DNA of 64,000 bases from a candidate division WWE3 bacterium (GTDB taxonomy: Bacteria > Patescibacteriota > 4484-211 > GCA-002791395): the NCBI GenBank assembly GCA_013335095.1, contig JAAXWF010000003.1, positions 69,960 through 133,959 on the forward strand, given 5' to 3'. The notes beneath the pieces are model-generated. The model was not told where the DNA came from. It ran no database searches and saw nothing but the letters and a program-made list of their open reading frames with translations. Shown in pieces: positions 49,872 to 61,264 of this stretch (positions within the stretch are counted from its first letter, which is position 1; each line of letters starts with the position of its first letter). A program made the translations under genes and the position numbers.

Positions 49872-49911
49872 GGCCGGCACTCCGAAAGGGATGCCGGCCT
49901 TTTCTTTTTTT
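49872..49911 (+). terminator. rho-independent terminator (8-bp GC stem + U-run)
   Basis: ggccggca-ctccgaaaggga-tgccggcc-ttttcttttttt. Confidence 0.65.
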
Positions 49912-50761
49912 ACTCCATTGAATTAGGAACTATCACGTGAACAATACGTACACCAAAGTGTTTCAGTATTGTTTGACCATCGAGCATTGCATAGCCATCT
50001 GCATAGTACATCGTCCGAATGCCTGAGCATCCGATTAACTTTGCACACGCTGGGCAGGGAAATGTACTTACATAGAGATGGCTTCCTTTTGTCCGAAATC
50101 CATCTCTAGCTGCCATTGCGATTACATACGCTTCGGCATGAATTGCCGTGGTTAGATCAACATGCACTGCTTTATACAATGCATTACGCGGATCCCCGTC
50201 ACTATATGGGGTAAGTGGATGCGGGAGGTGACGGTTAAACCCCGTGATGAGTATTTGTCCTCGCGGGGAGACCAATACCGCTCCTACCTGACGCCACCAA
50301 TCCGAAGATTGATGCGCCGCTTTTTGTGCCCGCCCAAGCAGTTCAACATGACAAGCCTCTGCCGTGATGACTTGATCCGGTATAACCTCTTGTTCGGTAA
50401 CCGTACGCCGTTTATCCCATCGCAAAAAGATCGCCGAATAGATGGTCTGATTACGTTTGAAGTACTGGTGCGCCAATTGATGACACACATCTTCGTCGGG
50501 CATCACTATCAGTGAGGCTTGCATTGCTAGTTCCCGAAGACCGTCCTCATCGATTACACGAACGCTTGGTATGATCCCGATGACTCGTAGCGCATCAGCA
50601 ATCATATGGGGCGTGAGTGACCGAATCTCTTTGGCCAGGTAATCAAACTGATCAATTAACTCTTGTGAGATGATACAGAGTTGATCAGCATCAGCGTGGC
50701 ATTTAAGTAGATCGATATATCCACGATGAAGTATGGGGATATAGGCTACGATGACCTTCAT
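49910..50761 (-). CDS. dCMP / deoxycytidylate deaminase with ~130-aa N-terminal extension of unknown function
   Basis: Zinc motifs HAE and PCPAC in the C-terminal half. N-terminal half unassigned. Confidence 0.6.
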   Translation of the reverse strand: MKVIVAYIPILHRGYIDLLKCHADADQLCIISQELIDQFDYLAKEIRSLTPHMIADALRVIGIIPSVRVIDEDGLRELAMQASLIVMPDEDVCHQLAHQYFKRNQTIYSAIFLRWDKRRTVTEQEVIPDQVITAEACHVELLGRAQKAAHQSSDWWRQVGAVLVSPRGQILITGFNRHLPHPLTPYSDGDPRNALYKAVHVDLTTAIHAEAYVIAMAARDGFRTKGSHLYVSTFPCPACAKLIGCSGIRTMYYADGYAMLDGQTILKHFGVRIVHVIVPNSME

Positions 50762-53487: not shown

Positions 53488-53976
53488 TTAAAGCTGTGCC
53501 GGATGCATTCCACCTGCTAAACGTAATCTAAGTGCACCGAGTTGTAACAGTGATTCCGGTGCTAATCGAGATTTAACCGAACCGTCTTTATCCTGGTCGA
53601 TCAAGAATCCGAGATGTCTAATTGCGTGAATGACTACGTCTTGTTGTTTTAAATTTGCTGGGCGGGGGATAATCGGATTGGTTTGTTCAATCGCGGTAAA
53701 TTGCTCGAATTCAAGGGAATCGTTCGGCTCGATGGTGATAGCATCACAATAAATGAGATACGTAATGATGATCTGATTGGGATTTTCGAATCGCCAACTC
53801 GTTGAATGAACAATTGCTTTTTGTAGATTTAGACCTGGTATTGTTTGGGTGGCTAGCCATTGATGAACGGTATCGTCCGGATTTTGCGGGGTATTAGTTG
53901 TATCAAGTGGTGTTATGCGATATCGAATGGTTCTCTCGATTAATGTCGCGACTATACATTCAATGATCGTGTTCAT
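53488..53976 (-). CDS. hypothetical protein
   Basis: ORF trimmed to ATG at 53976, because the ORF-track start runs into tRNA-Leu. Confidence 0.35.
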   Translation of the reverse strand: MNTIIECIVATLIERTIRYRITPLDTTNTPQNPDDTVHQWLATQTIPGLNLQKAIVHSTSWRFENPNQIIITYLIYCDAITIEPNDSLEFEQFTAIEQTNPIIPRPANLKQQDVVIHAIRHLGFLIDQDKDGSVKSRLAPESLLQLGALRLRLAGGMHPAQL

Positions 53977-53985
53977 GAATTTAAG

Positions 53986-54072
53986 TGGTGCCGGAGGAGA
54001 GACTCGAACTCTCACGGGTTTTGAATCCATCGGATTTTAAGTCCGACGCGTCTGCCATTCCGCCACTCCGGC
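53986..54072 (-). tRNA. tRNA-Leu (anticodon UAA), CCA encoded
   Basis: Cloverleaf folded by hand: acceptor GCCGGAG/CTCCGGC, anticodon loop CUUAAAA, long variable arm, T-loop TTCGAGT, 3' ACCA. Confidence 0.85.
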
Positions 54073-54128
54073 TTATAAAACGTACCCCTGTATTGTATCA
54101 GACTTGCCCAGAATGTGGAGTATGCGCA

Positions 54129-54791
54129 CTATTTTTCTGAGGTCGTTGCGGGCGTTTCAAGGGGGATATTTTTAGATACACGTGAAATTGAACTGTTTGG
54201 AATAATATGAATGGCTTTATCGGGTGATTCAATGATCGTGGTACGTAAATTGACCTGTTTTACAACGCCTTTAACCCCGGCGATATCGACTACGTCGCCA
54301 ATGTTATATTGATTTTCCAAAATCATAAAAAAACCGGTTACAACATCCTGGACTAGCTTTTGAGATCCGAATCCTACCGCCAGTCCAACGACTCCGGCAC
54401 TGGTAATAATTGGCGCAATATTTACACCCCATTCGGCTAACGCCATAACAAATACAATTCCCCATACCAGAACAGCCGCGGCGTTGCCCATAATGCTTTT
54501 TAGTGTATGTAAACGAGGCGATATTGTGGTCGATGATCCGACACCGTCATTGATCCGTTTAAGAAGTCGGGATATTGAGGTATTTATTATTTGAATCGCA
54601 ATATACCCGGCAACCAAATATACCGAGGTTTTTATCAGTTTATTCGTATACACGGGCAGTTCAGCCATCAGTATTGTCGCGTTTTGTTGTAGTAATGCGG
54701 TATCTATTGGCTTCATGTACCCCTCTATTGTACTGTTTCTGGCAAGAAATTGGTATGTTCGGAGATTTTTAACCGTATAATTATAAGTCAA
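54129..54791 (-). CDS. small-conductance mechanosensitive channel (MscS family)
   Basis: Three TM helices followed by MscS beta domain (…GDVVDIAGVKGVVKQVNLRTTIIESPDKAIHIIPNS). Confidence 0.65.
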   Translation of the reverse strand: MTYNYTVKNLRTYQFLARNSTIEGYMKPIDTALLQQNATILMAELPVYTNKLIKTSVYLVAGYIAIQIINTSISRLLKRINDGVGSSTTISPRLHTLKSIMGNAAAVLVWGIVFVMALAEWGVNIAPIITSAGVVGLAVGFGSQKLVQDVVTGFFMILENQYNIGDVVDIAGVKGVVKQVNLRTTIIESPDKAIHIIPNSSISRVSKNIPLETPATTSEK

Positions 54792-55297
54792 TGAACATGT
54801 ATGGGTACGCTTTTTATCGACGAAATAGTGGTTGTCGGCTGTTATATTCCCTGACAGGTTTTGACTACCGGTGTCTTATATTTGGCGAAAAATCTTTGCA
54901 TACCTTTATTAACCGACTAATCACTGATCAACCAGATTATGTTATTGGATTTGGGGTGTACGGCGGCCGTGATCAGGATAAGCTCAGGATTGAAACTGTA
55001 TGTCGGAACACTTTTGGCCGTAAACCGGTTATCGAAGGCGGACCGCCTGAGTTACTGATGAAGCCGTTTATTCATCCGACATTAAATCTTAAGAATGCCA
55101 AGTGGATGGGAAATTCGTGGTGTAATCGGAGTTCGTACGAAATTACTAATCAAAAGGCACGCGGACAATTATCGTCGGCATTCACATTCATTCATGTACC
55201 TAAAAAGATAACCGAGGGACATATCTATGACCTACAATCTCAGATCGATTCATTATTACAGGGGGAGTTCGTTATTCCGGCAGAAGGCGTTCTATAA
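54791..55297 (+). CDS. hypothetical protein
   Basis: ORF only. Confidence 0.3.
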   Translation: MNMYGYAFYRRNSGCRLLYSLTGFDYRCLIFGEKSLHTFINRLITDQPDYVIGFGVYGGRDQDKLRIETVCRNTFGRKPVIEGGPPELLMKPFIHPTLNLKNAKWMGNSWCNRSSYEITNQKARGQLSSAFTFIHVPKKITEGHIYDLQSQIDSLLQGEFVIPAEGVL

Positions 55298-55832
55298 GGT
55301 TAAATTCTTGTTCGCAGCCGGGATATTGAACGGTACGTTTTTTCCCGTTTAAATTTACATAATAGGTAGCCGAATAGTCCATGACGACTGGGGCGTCGCA
55401 CTGCTTATCGAGTATATTTTGTTGTGAAATGGTCGTTTTAATCTGTTCGAGTGTTTGTGAAGATAGGGCTTTTTGACGTCTGTTGTATCCGTCATAAATT
55501 AATCGTCCATCTGTATATACGGTCGTGGTTTGGCTGCATGCACTTGGATTTTCACTACAATCACCGTTTGGCGTCTTGCCCCATGATTCACTTTTTTGAA
55601 AGATAATATCGTCGGTTGGTGTTATTGGGTTTTGATTTTGGTTGTTGTTTTGAGATGCCATTCGTCGGCCAAGTAGATACCCTCCGATACTAAAGATAAT
55701 CGCGCACACCACCGCTACGCGGACTAAGTTCGTCACATTTATTGCTGAGATGTTCATGAATGCTGGTTCAGCAGGTGATGTTTTGGGTAGGGAGTTTTTC
55801 TTTTTAGGACGTGTCGGGTTTTTTACCGGCAT
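55272..55832 (-). CDS. hypothetical membrane-anchored protein (signal-anchor, 6 Cys ectodomain)
   Basis: Basic N-terminus, single TM helix, Q/N-rich linker. Confidence 0.35.
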   Translation of the reverse strand: MPVKNPTRPKKKNSLPKTSPAEPAFMNISAINVTNLVRVAVVCAIIFSIGGYLLGRRMASQNNNQNQNPITPTDDIIFQKSESWGKTPNGDCSENPSACSQTTTVYTDGRLIYDGYNRRQKALSSQTLEQIKTTISQQNILDKQCDAPVVMDYSATYYVNLNGKKRTVQYPGCEQEFNLIERLLPE

Positions 55833-55983
55833 GGGTTTAGTCTAACCAAAGATATCTAATGAGGCAAGTTTTAAATTGATCTGATCGGGTAGGCAGTTGG
55901 TGTCAATGCGAATAATATGGGTAAGGATGGCGTTATATACAAACACCGCATTATTTATCTGCTGTGGTGGCAGATACTGCTTT

Positions 55984-56427
55984 TTAGGCTTTAATTGCAA
56001 TTGATTGAATATGCGAAACGGTGATCCAGGCTGCCATCGAGCCAAATCCCGCTTTATTAATAAAAAAGGGATGCACGTCGCGTACGTTGGAGAGAAATAT
56101 CAGGATACAGTATCTTTTACTACTAAATAAGTTTATGTAATGTCCAAGTTGATCGTCTGATATCCCGTCGGCTTTTCCGTATTCGGCAAGAATTTGGGTA
56201 ACTTTTTGGGGGGCTAGGTCTTCAAACTGGATAACGCGCGATACGCTTGCCGCAAGCTTCACTGGTTCTCCGGTATCTTTAAAATAAATCGTGTCTCCTG
56301 ATTCGACCTCGTTCCATGGGCGATAGCGGTGTTTGTACCAGCGTGATTCGATCTGTTTTTCACCAGAACGGATCTTTTCGGTTAACCCCCATGACTTGTT
56401 CATTATTGCGACATGATCGCGTGGCAT
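55984..56427 (-). CDS. ASCH-domain (PUA-like) protein
   Basis: IRSGEKQIESRW matches the ASCH G(E/K)KT.E.R motif. Confidence 0.45.
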   Translation of the reverse strand: MPRDHVAIMNKSWGLTEKIRSGEKQIESRWYKHRYRPWNEVESGDTIYFKDTGEPVKLAASVSRVIQFEDLAPQKVTQILAEYGKADGISDDQLGHYINLFSSKRYCILIFLSNVRDVHPFFINKAGFGSMAAWITVSHIQSIAIKA

Positions 56428-56444
56428 CGTAACGATAGTATAGT

Positions 56445-56951
56445 ATGAAGGGTGATATGGCTAAACCAGCATTTTCGATAGCGCGTATTGATGAACGGAT
56501 CAAGACTTTGTGGCCGTCTGCTTCTCCTACCGTGGCGGCACAATGGGCGATTGACTGTACTGTTCGTGTGTTGCCGTTTTTTGAACAGGAGTATCCAAAC
56601 GATACTCGGCCACGTCAGGCTCTTGCTGCACTCACGCAGTGGATGAATACCGGCGTATTTAAGATGGCCGTTATACGTACCGCGTCGCTTGATTCACATG
56701 CCGCGGCGCGCGAAGTTGGCAATGATACTCCCGCCCGATCAGCGGCTCGTTCTGCAGGACAAACGTGTGCAACGGCTCATGTTAAAGATCATGCAATTGC
56801 CGCAGCGATGTATGCTCAGCAGGCATTGTTTCGGAGCGCGCTACCAGAGCTGTCATTGGATTTGGTCGCCAGCGAACGAGAGTGGCAGTATGAGCATTTG
56901 TGTGAGCTTATTCGTGTATCACCAGCGGATGCTGTCTCTACTGACAAATAG
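56445..56951 (+). CDS. alpha-helical hypothetical protein, Imm5-like putative immunity-protein family
   Basis: W..DC..RVLP.FE….D.RPRQA motif recalled from putative-immunity-protein families. GC higher than neighbours. Confidence 0.35.
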   Translation: MKGDMAKPAFSIARIDERIKTLWPSASPTVAAQWAIDCTVRVLPFFEQEYPNDTRPRQALAALTQWMNTGVFKMAVIRTASLDSHAAAREVGNDTPARSAARSAGQTCATAHVKDHAIAAAMYAQQALFRSALPELSLDLVASEREWQYEHLCELIRVSPADAVSTDK

Positions 56952-56986
56952 AATTTCTGGTAAAAATAGCGTAGTATACGTACATC

Positions 56987-57265
56987 ATGGCGCACACTTC
57001 ACGCGAAGAATTACTCAAAAAGCTAGAACATGCTAAATCTATGGTCGAGATTGGGGCTGAGTATCAACATGTGAAGTCGGGAGGTCGGTATGTGGTGACC
57101 GATATCGTTATTCGCGAAGACAACGAAGAGATTCGGGTTATTTATCAGGAGTTAGAGCATACTCCAACAATCAGTTGGGATCGTTCGTTTGATGGTACCG
57201 ATGGTTGGATTGTGCCGACCGAAGTTGATGGTAAAGAATCTCCCCGGTTTGTTCGTTGTGCATAG
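56987..57265 (+). CDS. DUF1653-like small protein
   Basis: Y.HVKSGG.Y.V….E…I..YQ.L pattern. Confidence 0.4.
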   Translation: MAHTSREELLKKLEHAKSMVEIGAEYQHVKSGGRYVVTDIVIREDNEEIRVIYQELEHTPTISWDRSFDGTDGWIVPTEVDGKESPRFVRCA

Positions 57266-57978
57266 GTCTTGTTTATCTTTATTATTTCTTGGTTTACAAT
57301 TTAGCGCAGATGGATTTTTCAACCGATGAGAAATTGATTGTGCGCCAGTCGCTCGAGGTCTATGCGGCGATTATTTGTGTTTGGATTGTGTTGTGGATTA
57401 TTAAGTCGCCAATTAATGATCCGAGTACGTTTTTAGGGAGTTCTTTAGGTGGGGTGTTATTTTGGACGGTTGCGAAGGTGATTGTGTGGATTTTGCCGTC
57501 GCTGTATTTGATTCGTTTTTCTAATCGTACGGTTGGTGATGTGTTTAATGTTACGGCCTGGCGTCAGTGGCTTGTGTGGGGAGTTGGGAGTGGGATGCTC
57601 GTTGCGATTATTAATACGATTCCTAAGATTATGGCGAACCAGCCGCTTGTGCCGCCGCATTTTGCCATTTCGTATATGAGTGCAGGATTTATTACGCCGA
57701 TTTTGGAGGAGTTTTTTATGCGTGGCGCGTTGATGGGGAATATGCAAAAACAGTTTTCTTTTTGGAAGGCGAATGTGATTACGTCGGTGTTATTTTTAGG
57801 GCTTCATTTACCGGGATGGTATTTTATGGGAACGTTGGTTGATAATTTTACCAAACCAATTGGAGGTGCGTTTTCGATCTTTTTACTTGGGTTATTGTTT
57901 GGATACGTGACTCACAAAGGTAAATCTGTCTTGGCCGGTACGATTGTTCATAGTTTAAATAATTTGACGGTGGGGTAA
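57256..57978 (+). CDS. CPBP-family intramembrane metalloprotease (CAAX protease / Abi-like)
   Basis: EEFFMRG (EExxxR), FLGLH (FxxxH) and HSLNN (HxxxN) motifs. Multi-TM. Confidence 0.7.
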   Translation: MCIGLVYLYYFLVYNLAQMDFSTDEKLIVRQSLEVYAAIICVWIVLWIIKSPINDPSTFLGSSLGGVLFWTVAKVIVWILPSLYLIRFSNRTVGDVFNVTAWRQWLVWGVGSGMLVAIINTIPKIMANQPLVPPHFAISYMSAGFITPILEEFFMRGALMGNMQKQFSFWKANVITSVLFLGLHLPGWYFMGTLVDNFTKPIGGAFSIFLLGLLFGYVTHKGKSVLAGTIVHSLNNLTVG

Positions 57979-58273
57979 TTGTACAAGGAGGCATTCCCGC
58001 GAGACGAAACCCTTTGGTAGCCCTCCAATCGTGATAATATCAATTATACCAATCAAATAAAAATCATTAAGTTGTACGATGATTTCCTCTAGATGGGCAC
58101 AGCTGCGACCATGCCATAACTATCAGATAGAAAAGCAAAAAAAGTAGGGCTAGTATATGCTAGAATCATGCTACCGAATGGTCTTTGTAGTGAAAGTACC
58201 TTTTAAGGGAGCAAATGTTGGCACAGTAATGTGATCCATCTTTGCTACATGGACCGCCTAGGATTAAACCAAT

Positions 58274-61066
58274 ATGGACAAAGGAGCTCACTTTTACAAA
58301 TGTGATTTTCAAGTTCACACTCCTCGGGACGCAAACTGGGAGGGTGCGGAAGCCATCACAGAGCAAGACCGTAAAGCTTATGCAGAGGAGCTTATTCAAG
58401 CATGCCGAGCAAAGAATATTGATGTAATTGCAGTAACTGATCATCACGATTTCTGCATGTTCCCATATGTGAAAGCCGCAGCTGCAACAGAGGTGAATGC
58501 TACAGGAGACTCCATTCTGAAAGAGAATCAGATTATTGTCTTTCCTGGCATCGAAATCACGCTTTCATCTCCACCTTGCCAAGCGATACTTTTATTCGAT
58601 GCTGATTTCGATGAGACAAAATTTGGAGACATTCTAACAACGCTCACTATTGCTGCCACAGATCCGGCAAATAGCAAACTTGCAAGCGTTGAGTCTGTAT
58701 CACCGGCATCAATCACCGGATTGAACGATCTCGAAGAACGACTAAATCAGCATCCATGGCTTAAAGGAAAATACATCATACTTCCGAACGTCACTTCAGC
58801 AGGATATAAAACTCTTTTTCGGGATGGATTCGCAAAACACTACAAAGAGATGCGTTGCGTGGGTGGTTATGTTGATGGTGATTATTCAAAGTCGAGTGAT
58901 GGACATAAAAATATCCTTGAGGGTCGCCAGCAAAATAATGGATACAAACCGATTGCCGTCTTTCAAACTTCAGATAACCGCAAGCGTGATCATTCTGATC
59001 TTGGTTCGTCTAGCACATACGTCAAATGGTCAGAGCCGACTGCAGAGGCACTGCGTCAGGCATGCTTGGCTAGAGAATCTAGGGTTTCTCTCATTGAACC
59101 CGAACTTCCGAATCTTTGGATTACATCAATCAGCGTTACAAACTCCAAGTTTCTTGGACAAATTGGCTTTGATTTAAACCAGCAATACAACGCCATTATT
59201 GGCGGTCGTGGTACGGGCAAGTCTACAATTCTCGAATATCTCCGATGGGGACTTTGTGATCAGCCGATGGAAAGCGAGGACATGGATATTGTGCAAACTA
59301 AACGTAAGAACTTGATCGACAATACTCTCCAGAAATTCGACGGTGAAGTGCATGTGGAATTTTTACTCAATGACGTTCCTCATATCGTAAAACGTAACTC
59401 AAAGAAGCAGGAAATTTTGCTTAAAATTGGCGACGGTGATTTTACTCTTGCCACAGAACAACAAGTGCGAAATTTGCTTCCGATTCAAGCGTACAGTCAG
59501 AAACAGCTTAGTAGCGTAGGTGTACGCATCGATGAGCTCAAGCGTTTTGTCGAATTACCAATCAAACAGGAACTCGATCAGATTCGTTCGGATGTAAGAG
59601 ACATCGAAGCGAAGATGCGATCCACCTATGGCGATCTAATTCGGATGAATGAAGTCAAAGCCGAAATCGATAAAAACAACGTTGAGATAGCTTCTTCGAC
59701 TAAACAACTGGAGAAACTTCGCAAGAGTCTTAAAGGTTTATCTAAAGAGGATCAGGAAACTATCGATCAAAAGGCAAAGTACGATAACGAAGAAGCGATC
59801 ATTGAGGGTCTCAAAAACGAGCTAGAAACGACCCAAAAGCACGTCGGTAGTCTTGTTGTTGAAGCATTGGAGAGCGAAGATGTAGAGGAGGAAGATTTCG
59901 AGCTTGAGAACAAATCTCTGATCGGCCGTATTCAAGAGAAATATGCTTCTAAATTTATCGAAATAGAAGCTGGTGTTTCTTCACTCGCTAATCTCTTCAA
60001 TCCAACATCGCTCAAGAGTATCAATGACGAAGTTGAAGAATGGGAAAAACTCAAGACGGCGTTTGATAAGAAATACGAAGCCGCAAAAGTAAAAGCTAAG
60101 GATAACCAGCAACAGCTCGATCAGATCCAAACTCTTGAGAAGCGTATTGCCGCACTCAAAAAACAACAGACGGAAAAACGCAATGCACTTGCGGCTCTTG
60201 GCGATCCAGAAACTGCGTACAAAAAACTCCGCACCAAGTGGGACGGTTTGCATACCCAAAAAATCACAGCTCTTGAGAAGCAGTGTACTCAGTTCACCGC
60301 ACTCTCTGACGATCTCATTAAGGCAGAAATTACAAACAGTCTGGACACTACATCCCTCACATTAAAACTCAAGACTGCTTTTTCCGGCATGAACATTAAC
60401 GAAGCAAAGCTTGAGAAAGTCTGCCAATCCCTCTTAGAAGCGAGTGATCCCCTTGTTGAATGGAACAGCATTCTTTCTGAACTTGAAAAGCTCGCATTTT
60501 ACTCCACAGAGGGACCGGATGAAATACCGGATACCCCGATTCTTAACAAGTGCAATTTTATTGACACTGAGCGTACAAGAATTGCGGGGAGTTTTGACTC
60601 TGCACGATGGCTTGATCTTTCTGTCACAGAGCTTGAATTTAATCCAAAGTTTTCTTATTGCACTAACAAAACGGAAAAAGATTATATCGGATTCTCGGAT
60701 GCATCAGCTGGTCAACAAGCTACCGCCTTGCTTACCGTTCTGTTGAACCAGCCAGGTGCGCCACTCATTATCGATCAACCTGAGGATGATATCGACAGTA
60801 AGATGTTCAAAGATATTGTTCAGCAGGTGTGGAGGGCTAAGGGTAAACGTCAGCTTGTTTTTGCGAGCCATAGTGCGAACATTGTCGTCAACGGTGATGC
60901 CGAACTGGTGGTCTGTTGTGACTACATAAAAACTGGTGATCAGACCCGTGGAGCAATTAAAGCTATGGGTGCGATCGATAAAAAAGAGATTAAAGAAGAA
61001 ATCATTCTTGTCACAGAAGGTGGACGGGATGCATTCAAATTAAGAATGGATCAATACGGTTTTTAA
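58274..61066 (+). CDS. PHP-domain phosphoesterase fused to SMC/ABC-type ATPase (Walker A GGRGTGKST, long coiled coil, Walker B LIIDQPEDDID); candidate single-gene anti-phage defence protein
   Basis: N-terminus CDFQVHTPRD…VTDHHD has PHP His motifs. The ATPase head is split by a ~350-aa coiled coil. ABC signature-like SDASAGQQ precedes Walker B. Confidence 0.7.
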   Translation: MDKGAHFYKCDFQVHTPRDANWEGAEAITEQDRKAYAEELIQACRAKNIDVIAVTDHHDFCMFPYVKAAAATEVNATGDSILKENQIIVFPGIEITLSSPPCQAILLFDADFDETKFGDILTTLTIAATDPANSKLASVESVSPASITGLNDLEERLNQHPWLKGKYIILPNVTSAGYKTLFRDGFAKHYKEMRCVGGYVDGDYSKSSDGHKNILEGRQQNNGYKPIAVFQTSDNRKRDHSDLGSSSTYVKWSEPTAEALRQACLARESRVSLIEPELPNLWITSISVTNSKFLGQIGFDLNQQYNAIIGGRGTGKSTILEYLRWGLCDQPMESEDMDIVQTKRKNLIDNTLQKFDGEVHVEFLLNDVPHIVKRNSKKQEILLKIGDGDFTLATEQQVRNLLPIQAYSQKQLSSVGVRIDELKRFVELPIKQELDQIRSDVRDIEAKMRSTYGDLIRMNEVKAEIDKNNVEIASSTKQLEKLRKSLKGLSKEDQETIDQKAKYDNEEAIIEGLKNELETTQKHVGSLVVEALESEDVEEEDFELENKSLIGRIQEKYASKFIEIEAGVSSLANLFNPTSLKSINDEVEEWEKLKTAFDKKYEAAKVKAKDNQQQLDQIQTLEKRIAALKKQQTEKRNALAALGDPETAYKKLRTKWDGLHTQKITALEKQCTQFTALSDDLIKAEITNSLDTTSLTLKLKTAFSGMNINEAKLEKVCQSLLEASDPLVEWNSILSELEKLAFYSTEGPDEIPDTPILNKCNFIDTERTRIAGSFDSARWLDLSVTELEFNPKFSYCTNKTEKDYIGFSDASAGQQATALLTVLLNQPGAPLIIDQPEDDIDSKMFKDIVQQVWRAKGKRQLVFASHSANIVVNGDAELVVCCDYIKTGDQTRGAIKAMGAIDKKEIKEEIILVTEGGRDAFKLRMDQYGF

Positions 61067-61125
61067 ATGTTAGATCCGACTCCGGTTGCCAGTGTCCAAA
61101 TCTCCCAGGCTAACGCCAAAAAACG

Positions 61126-61152
61126 AAAAAACCTGGCTCGTACCAGGTTTTC
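61126..61152. terminator. bidirectional intrinsic terminator
   Basis: aaaaaa-cctgg-ctcgta-ccagg-ttttc. Confidence 0.5.
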
Positions 61153-61189
61153 AAGGCTAAATTTGAAGATTTTTCAGTTTATTATCGTA

Positions 61190-61264
61190 TGGAGCGGGTA
61201 GCGGGAATCGAACCCGCATCTTCACCTTGGAAGGGTGACATAATAGCCTTTATACAATACCCGC
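61190..61264 (-). tRNA. tRNA-Gly (anticodon UCC), CCA encoded
   Basis: Cloverleaf folded by hand: acceptor GCGGGTA/TACCCGC, anticodon stem TCACC/GGTGA with loop CUUCCAA, T-arm GCGGG-TTCGATT-CCCGC. Confidence 0.85.

What the first reader, a model, noticed from the sequence alone, without database searches (positions are those of the whole stretch)
58274..61066. Single-gene PHP-nuclease-like + SMC/ABC ATPase fusion next to tRNA-Gly: candidate anti-phage defence (Ppl-like architecture)
The 930-aa protein combines an N-terminal PHP phosphoesterase domain (His-rich CDFQVHTPRD…VTDHHD) with a RecF/SMC-type ATPase. Walker A GGRGTGKST and Walker B LIIDQPEDDID are separated by about 350 aa of coiled coil. 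ATPase plus nuclease fusions of this kind (OLD, Gabija GajA, Lamassu, PARIS AriA) are hallmark defence modules. To my recollection, a PHP+ATPase single-gene system has been reported under the name Ppl. The gene has no SD: ATG sits 8-10 nt after a TAGGAT -10-like element, so it may be leaderless. It shows slightly different composition from neighbours. It lies directly upstream of tRNA-Gly and follows an Imm-like/DUF1653/CPBP islet, consistent with a defence islet at a tRNA hotspot.
Basis: partly seen in the sequence, partly recalled or inferred. Interest (0 to 1): 0.75.

Follow-up and report, generated by a model that had tools for sequence, protein, structure and literature searches.

The report
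Ppl-like PHP–ATPase defence gene (TrlF family)
This is a real, intact 930-residue gene in a candidate-phylum (WWE3) bacterium that fuses a PHP-type phosphoesterase to a Rad50/SMC-like ATPase; it belongs to the already named TrlF family, which includes the proven anti-phage protein Ppl, and was probably picked up by horizontal transfer, so it is a plausible but ordinary new member of a known defence family.

Summary
The ORF at 58274-61066 (+) is real and full length. NCBIfam places it in the 'TrlF family AAA-like ATPase' (495 bits, cutoff 350). It fails the narrow Ppl model (169 bits, cutoff 1000). Genuine E. coli Ppl also passes the TrlF model (477 bits), so Ppl is a branch of this family and the window protein is a collinear homologue, not Ppl itself.

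The gene looks horizontally acquired:
- It is 85% nucleotide-identical to a copy beside a Minisyncoccia prophage, and similarity stops at the ORF ends.
- A core neighbour (cyclophilin) has no relative above 66% identity.
- Two WWE3 relatives keep cyclophilin, tRNA-Gly and tRNA-Leu but hold 0.2 kb or 2.5 kb of other DNA where this genome has 7.1 kb.

Relatives sit in prophage ends, plasmids, a P2 hotspot, a BREX locus, and next to R-M genes in 19 of 57 loci. The window's subclade lacks the TrlG partner and has replaced four canonical PHP histidines.

The parts
58274..61066 (+). TrlF-family gene (930 aa): PHP phosphoesterase fused to a Rad50/SMC-like ABC ATPase
   Evidence: ORF. NCBIfam NF045780: 495.2 bits against cutoff 350, residues 3-929 on model positions 1-944. 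100% identical to an NCBI protein named 'AAA family ATPase [candidate division WWE3 bacterium]'.
58274..59083 (+). PHP-fold domain (aa 1-270) with non-canonical ligand set: D11, Q13, H15, D19, D56, H57, H58, E94, Q103, D234, R236, H240
59114..59509 (+). ATPase head, N-terminal lobe (aa 281-412), including Walker A GGRGTGKST (nt 59201-59227)
59516..60304 (+). Antiparallel coiled-coil arm (aa 415-677), apex loop about aa 534-546, no CxxC zinc hook
   Evidence: Helices 415-484, 491-531, 547-573, 581-607, 609-642 and 645-677 in the AF2 model. Only one Cys (C671) in this stretch (sequence). Foldseek hits to Rad50, Smc, JetC and MukB with coiled coils.
60317..60628 (+). Helical insert between the coiled coil and the C-terminal lobe (aa 682-785)
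   Evidence: AF2 model secondary structure, pLDDT about 76-92.
60641..61063 (+). ATPase head, C-terminal lobe (aa 790-930): signature SAGQQ (nt 60704-60718), Walker B LIIDQPEDDID (nt 60764-60796), H-loop ASHSAN
   Evidence: Pfam AAA_21. This is the block best conserved with Ppl: 37% identity, E = 2e-20. Motif positions.
58259..58264 (+). TAGGAT hexamer 9 nt before the ATG: either a -10-like element of a leaderless transcript or an AGGA Shine-Dalgarno
   Evidence: Sequence. Comparison with 45 ORF starts in the window.
61127..61152 (.). GC-rich hairpin between the convergent TrlF gene and tRNA-Gly; terminator-like, with the clearer T-tail on the minus strand
   Evidence: Terminator scan. Sequence.
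61190..61264 (-). tRNA-Gly(tcc), one border of the variable interval
   Evidence: ARAGORN. Rfam 63 bits. Orthologous tRNAs lie next to the cyclophilin gene in relatives L016 and L019.
53986..54072 (-). tRNA-Leu(taa), the other border of the variable interval
   Evidence: ARAGORN and Rfam. Orthologues in L016 and L019.
54073..61189 (.). 7.1-kb variable interval between the two tRNAs: MscS, three hypotheticals (one weakly ASCH-like), Imm5_like, DUF1653, CPBP, TrlF
   Evidence: The same tRNA pair is about 210 nt apart in L016, and 2.5 kb apart with three unrelated genes in L019. Pfam of the window genes. No PADLOC hits for the eight neighbours scanned: the seven other genes of the interval plus the 180-aa ORF at 53488-54030 just outside it.

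Best explanation
The gene encodes a stand-alone member of the TrlF/Ppl family, acquired by horizontal transfer. The protein fuses an N-terminal PHP phosphoesterase domain to a Rad50/SMC-type ABC ATPase, whose two head lobes are separated by a folded-back coiled coil.

Its most likely role is defence against phages or other invading DNA. By analogy with E. coli Ppl, the ATPase head would bind nucleotide and DNA (probably free DNA ends) and gate the PHP domain. The PHP domain would then degrade foreign DNA from 3'-OH ends when phage infection lowers the NTP pool.

Shown here: the architecture, the fold, intact ATPase motifs, family membership, mobility, and genomic association with R-M systems, prophage accessory regions, plasmids and a BREX locus.

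Inferred: the defence function, nuclease activity, substrate and trigger. The PHP site of this subclade is non-canonical, because four histidines that are conserved in Ppl are replaced. The chemistry or metal requirement may therefore differ from Ppl.
For: Family:
- NF045780 TrlF family, 495 bits against cutoff 350, full length.
- Genuine Ppl (WP_015059139, 1330 bits on the Ppl model) also scores 477 bits on the TrlF model.
- Ppl aligns collinearly with the window protein in three blocks.
- Best PADLOC hit is Ppl, E = 4e-38.

Fold:
- AF2 model pLDDT 83.1, pTM 0.70.
- Foldseek matches to Rad50, Smc, JetC and RecN.

Conservation:
- Walker A, signature, Walker B and H-loop are invariant in 72 homologues, as are PHP residues D11, Q13, H15, D19, D56, H57, H58, E94, D234 and H240.

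Mobility:
- 90% amino-acid and 84.7% nucleotide identity to a Minisyncoccia copy, with similarity ending at the ORF borders.
- A 90%-identical copy on an IMG/VR viral contig.
- The core cyclophilin has no relative above 66% identity.
- The gene is absent from the orthologous tRNA-Gly/tRNA-Leu interval in two WWE3 relatives.
- At least 579 loci scattered over many phyla among 185,579 species genomes.

Context:
- Prophage ends with Fic, RadC, R-M genes, a PD-(D/E)XK nuclease and an integrase.
- Next to type I R-M plus transposase and recombinase.
- Plasmids carrying type III R-M and toxin-antitoxin genes.
- The P2 gpA-gpQ hotspot.
- Between pglX and pglZ of a BREX-1 system.
- R-M-type neighbours in 19 of 57 subclade loci.

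Ppl function and mechanism: PMC11482910, PMC12904381, and Xu et al. 2026 as cited in PMC13434339.
Against: - No experiment exists for this subclade. The only genetics on a protein named TrlF (Photorhabdus TRL) found no phenotype attributable to trlF (PMC7554251).
- The window protein fails the Ppl model (169 bits against cutoff 1000).
- Pfam PHP is below its gathering score (18 against 26.4).
- A profile of the window clade alone finds no PHP structure by sequence.
- Four His positions conserved in Ppl, the Yersinia-phage TrlF or TM0559 are changed: H to Q13; H to Q103; the mid-domain 'AH' is lost; SDAH becomes SDNR. PHP catalysis is therefore uncertain.
- In the window there is no integrase, transposase, R-M system or att repeat nearby. 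The local context alone does not indicate defence.
Confidence: 0.6

Rival explanations
1. The PHP domain of this subclade is catalytically degenerate. The protein would act as an ATP- and DNA-sensing clamp or switch rather than as the nuclease. It might halt replication or growth (as the Photorhabdus TRL locus does), or hand cleaved DNA to other enzymes such as the R-M systems it often sits beside.
For: - Four canonical His positions are replaced in the window clade.
- The TrlG-paired subclade has an even more degenerate motif I, ALQVN.
- According to the review, NTPs bind Ppl's PHP domain as regulators.
- R-M genes are adjacent in 19 of 57 loci, and in L009 and L011 they lie a few nucleotides upstream in the same orientation.
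- The TRL operon causes growth arrest.
Against: - The remaining PHP residues and several new ones (H58, D59, R236, R238, H240, D201) are invariant across 72 sequences at 60-90% identity, which fits a working active site.
- The gene occurs alone in many loci, including the window, with no candidate effector nearby.
- The closest structural match of the domain is a DNA endonuclease, EndoQ.
Confidence: 0.2
2. It is a housekeeping DNA double-strand-break repair protein, a fused analogue of Mre11-Rad50 / SbcCD in which a PHP nuclease replaces Mre11. It would be retained by a reduced CPR genome.
For: - Rad50, SbcC, RecN and RecF heads are the best structural matches.
- RefSeq attaches the GO term 'double-strand break repair' to TrlF-family proteins.
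- In the window the gene lies among core genes, without mobility genes.
Against: - NCBIfam Rad50 scores 25.6 bits against a cutoff of 700.
- There is no zinc hook and no Mre11/SbcD partner.
- The distribution is sporadic, at least 579 of 185,579 species.
- Nucleotide identity of 84.7% to a copy in a different Patescibacteria class, confined to the ORF.
- The gene is absent at the orthologous site in two WWE3 relatives.
- Habitual location is in prophages, plasmids and defence loci.
Confidence: 0.07
3. It serves the mobile elements that carry it rather than the cell. Possible roles are superinfection exclusion, competition between prophages or plasmids, or addiction. The WWE3 copy would then be a stranded cargo gene with no current role.
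For: - The closest copies are at the integrase-proximal accessory end of CPR prophages and on a viral contig.
- 669 of 939 matching plasmids are conjugative.
- Only the ORF itself is shared between loci.
Against: - The ORF is intact, full length and has every family-invariant residue, so it is under purifying selection or very recently acquired.
- This reading overlaps with defence, because prophage-encoded exclusion is defence from the host's point of view. It differs mainly in who benefits.
Confidence: 0.1

Closest known systems
Ppl (E. coli anti-phage protein; NCBIfam NF042955, PADLOC PDLC02208)
   Same: - Single-gene system with PHP domain, ABC/SMC-like ATPase N-lobe, long helical insert and ATPase C-lobe in the same order.
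- Same unusual Walker B context (DQPEDD) and same Walker A (G(G/S)RG(T/S)GKST).
- Both pass the TrlF-family model (495 and 477 bits).
- Collinear BLASTP blocks of 23%, 24% and 37% identity.
- Both are found on mobile elements.
   Different: - The window protein scores 169 bits against the Ppl cutoff of 1000.
- Ppl keeps the canonical PHP ligands (DFHNHT, SDH, GVE...VH, AH, SDAH). The window clade has Q13, Q103, no mid-domain His, and SDNR.
- Ppl's activity (ssDNA 3'-5' exonuclease released by NTP depletion and 3'-OH ends) is untested for this protein.
TrlF of the Photorhabdus temperature restriction locus (trlR-trlF-trlG; PMC7554251), name-giver of NCBIfam NF045780
   Same: Same NCBIfam family above the cutoff, and the same architecture. 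RefSeq names plasmid homologues at 25-43% identity 'TrlF family AAA-like ATPase'.
   Different: - TRL-type TrlF is followed by TrlG (SLFN_AlbA_2 + HATPase_c_4). This is seen in 12 of 23 distant-subclade loci but in only 1 of 57 loci of the window's subclade, and it is absent from the window.
- The TrlG-paired members examined (Vibrio) have a more degenerate PHP motif I.
Rad50/SbcC-Mre11/SbcD, RecN, RecF and SMC heads
   Different: - No zinc hook or hinge.
- The nuclease is fused in cis and is a PHP fold rather than an Mre11 calcineurin-like fold.
- The sequence models are failed by a wide margin.
- The gene is mobile and sporadic rather than core.
ATPase-nuclease defence modules OLD / Gabija GajA, PARIS AriA, Lamassu LmuB, Septu PtuA
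   Different: The nuclease type and position differ (Toprim C-terminal in OLD and GajA; separate effector proteins in PARIS, Lamassu and Septu). None of those partners or domains is present here.
PHP-domain nucleases (EndoQ, RNase AM/YciV, PolX and DnaE1 PHP exonucleases)
   Same: PHP fold of the N-terminal 270 residues, retaining the D..H (motif I), DH, E and D ligands.
   Different: About half of the canonical His ligands are substituted, and the domain is fused to an SMC-like ATPase.

Membership tests
TrlF family AAA-like ATPase (NCBIfam NF045780) | Full-length match to the family HMM at or above the curated cutoff of 350 bits | tested here: met
   495.2 bits, E = 5.9e-148, residues 3-929 on model positions 1-944. 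Reference members score 455-545 bits.
TrlF family AAA-like ATPase (NCBIfam NF045780) | Architecture of N-terminal PHP-fold domain plus ABC/SMC-like ATPase interrupted by a coiled coil | tested here: met
Photorhabdus-type TRL operon (trlR-trlF-trlG) | Adjacent TrlG partner (SLFN_AlbA_2 + HATPase_c_4) and a small regulator TrlR | tested here: not met
   No such domains in any gene of the 54-62 kb region. Downstream there is only a tRNA. TrlG-like neighbours occur in 1 of 57 loci of the window's subclade against 12 of 23 in the distant subclade. TrlR was not searched with a reference sequence.
Ppl (NCBIfam NF042955, equivalog) | Match to the Ppl HMM at or above 1000 bits | tested here: not met
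   168.6 bits in 3 stretches. Genuine Ppl scores 1330 bits.
Ppl | Single-gene PHP + ATPase system | tested here: met
   Only the ORF is shared between loci. No conserved partner in the window's subclade.
Ppl | Canonical PHP metal-ligand set (HxH, DH, E, H, DxH) | tested here: not met
   The window clade has QxH, DHH, E, Q103, no mid-domain His, and SDNR. Ppl and the Yersinia-phage TrlF are canonical.
Ppl | Anti-phage activity; 3'-5' ssDNA exonuclease inhibited by NTPs and triggered by 3'-OH ends | not testable with these tools
   Known for E. coli Ppl only. Requires experiments.
Rad50 / SbcC | Match to Rad50/SbcC models, a zinc hook (CxxC) at the coiled-coil apex, and an Mre11/SbcD partner gene | tested here: not met
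   NCBIfam Rad50 scores 25.6 and 20.3 bits against cutoffs of 700 and 1000. There is a single Cys (C671) in residues 415-700 and an acidic apex loop. No Mre11-like neighbour.
OLD / Gabija GajA | N-terminal ABC ATPase followed by a C-terminal Toprim nuclease (plus GajB for Gabija) | tested here: not met
   Only the first 45 residues or so of the ATPase match GajA models (25-28 bits). There is no Toprim hit, and the nuclease-type domain is N-terminal and PHP.
Lamassu (LmuB) / PARIS (AriA) | SMC-like or ABC ATPase encoded with its partner effector (LmuA/LmuC; AriB) | tested here: not met
   Weak ATPase-only hits of 41 and 39 bits. No partner genes, and no PADLOC hit in the 8 neighbours.

The most novel reading that the evidence does not exclude
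The TrlG-less subclade with the Gln-substituted PHP site (Q13, Q103, SDNR) may be a mechanistically distinct defence enzyme rather than a simple Ppl copy. It could be a Mg/Mn-dependent end-processing nuclease that CPR prophages and plasmids carry next to R-M systems, to destroy DNA once it has been cut. A corollary is that the Photorhabdus 'temperature restriction locus' would be a Ppl-like defence system whose autoimmunity causes the growth arrest.
Probability: 0.2. Interest if true: 0.5.

Novelty: new member of a known kind. Interest (0 to 1): 0.3.

Why it matters
Defence systems of Patescibacteria (CPR) and their phages are poorly known. This gene shows that a Ppl-type single-gene module circulates as a bare ORF between CPR classes, their prophages, and many other phyla.

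The analysis also ties three separately named things together: Ppl, the 'TrlF family' used by RefSeq annotation, and the Photorhabdus temperature restriction locus. It points out a large TrlG-less subclade with an altered PHP site and frequent R-M linkage. That gives concrete mutants and partners to test.

For the genome scan itself, the result is mainly a correct annotation upgrade, from 'AAA family ATPase' to 'TrlF/Ppl-family PHP-ATPase, candidate defence gene'.

Tried and rejected
1. **att-like repeats:** I searched the window for repeats of the tRNA-Gly 3' end (28-mer with up to 3 mismatches) and for direct repeats in 53.0-61.4 kb. Only chance-level 14-23-nt pairs turned up, so there is no evidence of a classical integrated island.
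2. **Promoter scan:** No sigma-70 consensus promoter lies upstream of the gene on the + strand.
3. **PDB sequence search:** The whole protein gave only ABC-transporter noise (E about 0.01) and no Ppl structure.
4. **N-terminal-only model:** An AF2 model of the N-terminal domain from 15 fragments was poor (pLDDT 56) and was discarded. The PHP fold was instead read from the full-length model.
6. **Synteny via the cyclophilin anchor:** The third relative (L017) has no tRNAs nearby and is uninformative. Beyond the cyclophilin, tRNA-Gly, tRNA-Leu framework, synteny has decayed.
7. **Primary Ppl paper:** Xu et al. 2026 is not held in the library. The Ppl mechanism is therefore taken second-hand from PMC12904381 and PMC13434339.
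8. **'Defence islet' idea:** No neighbour hits PADLOC. The only other PADLOC hit in the window (dCTPase, ORF 49910-50761) covers just the shared deaminase domain.
9. **Yersinia P2-hotspot gene:** I considered that it was Ppl itself. It is TrlF family (465 bits) and not Ppl (127 bits).
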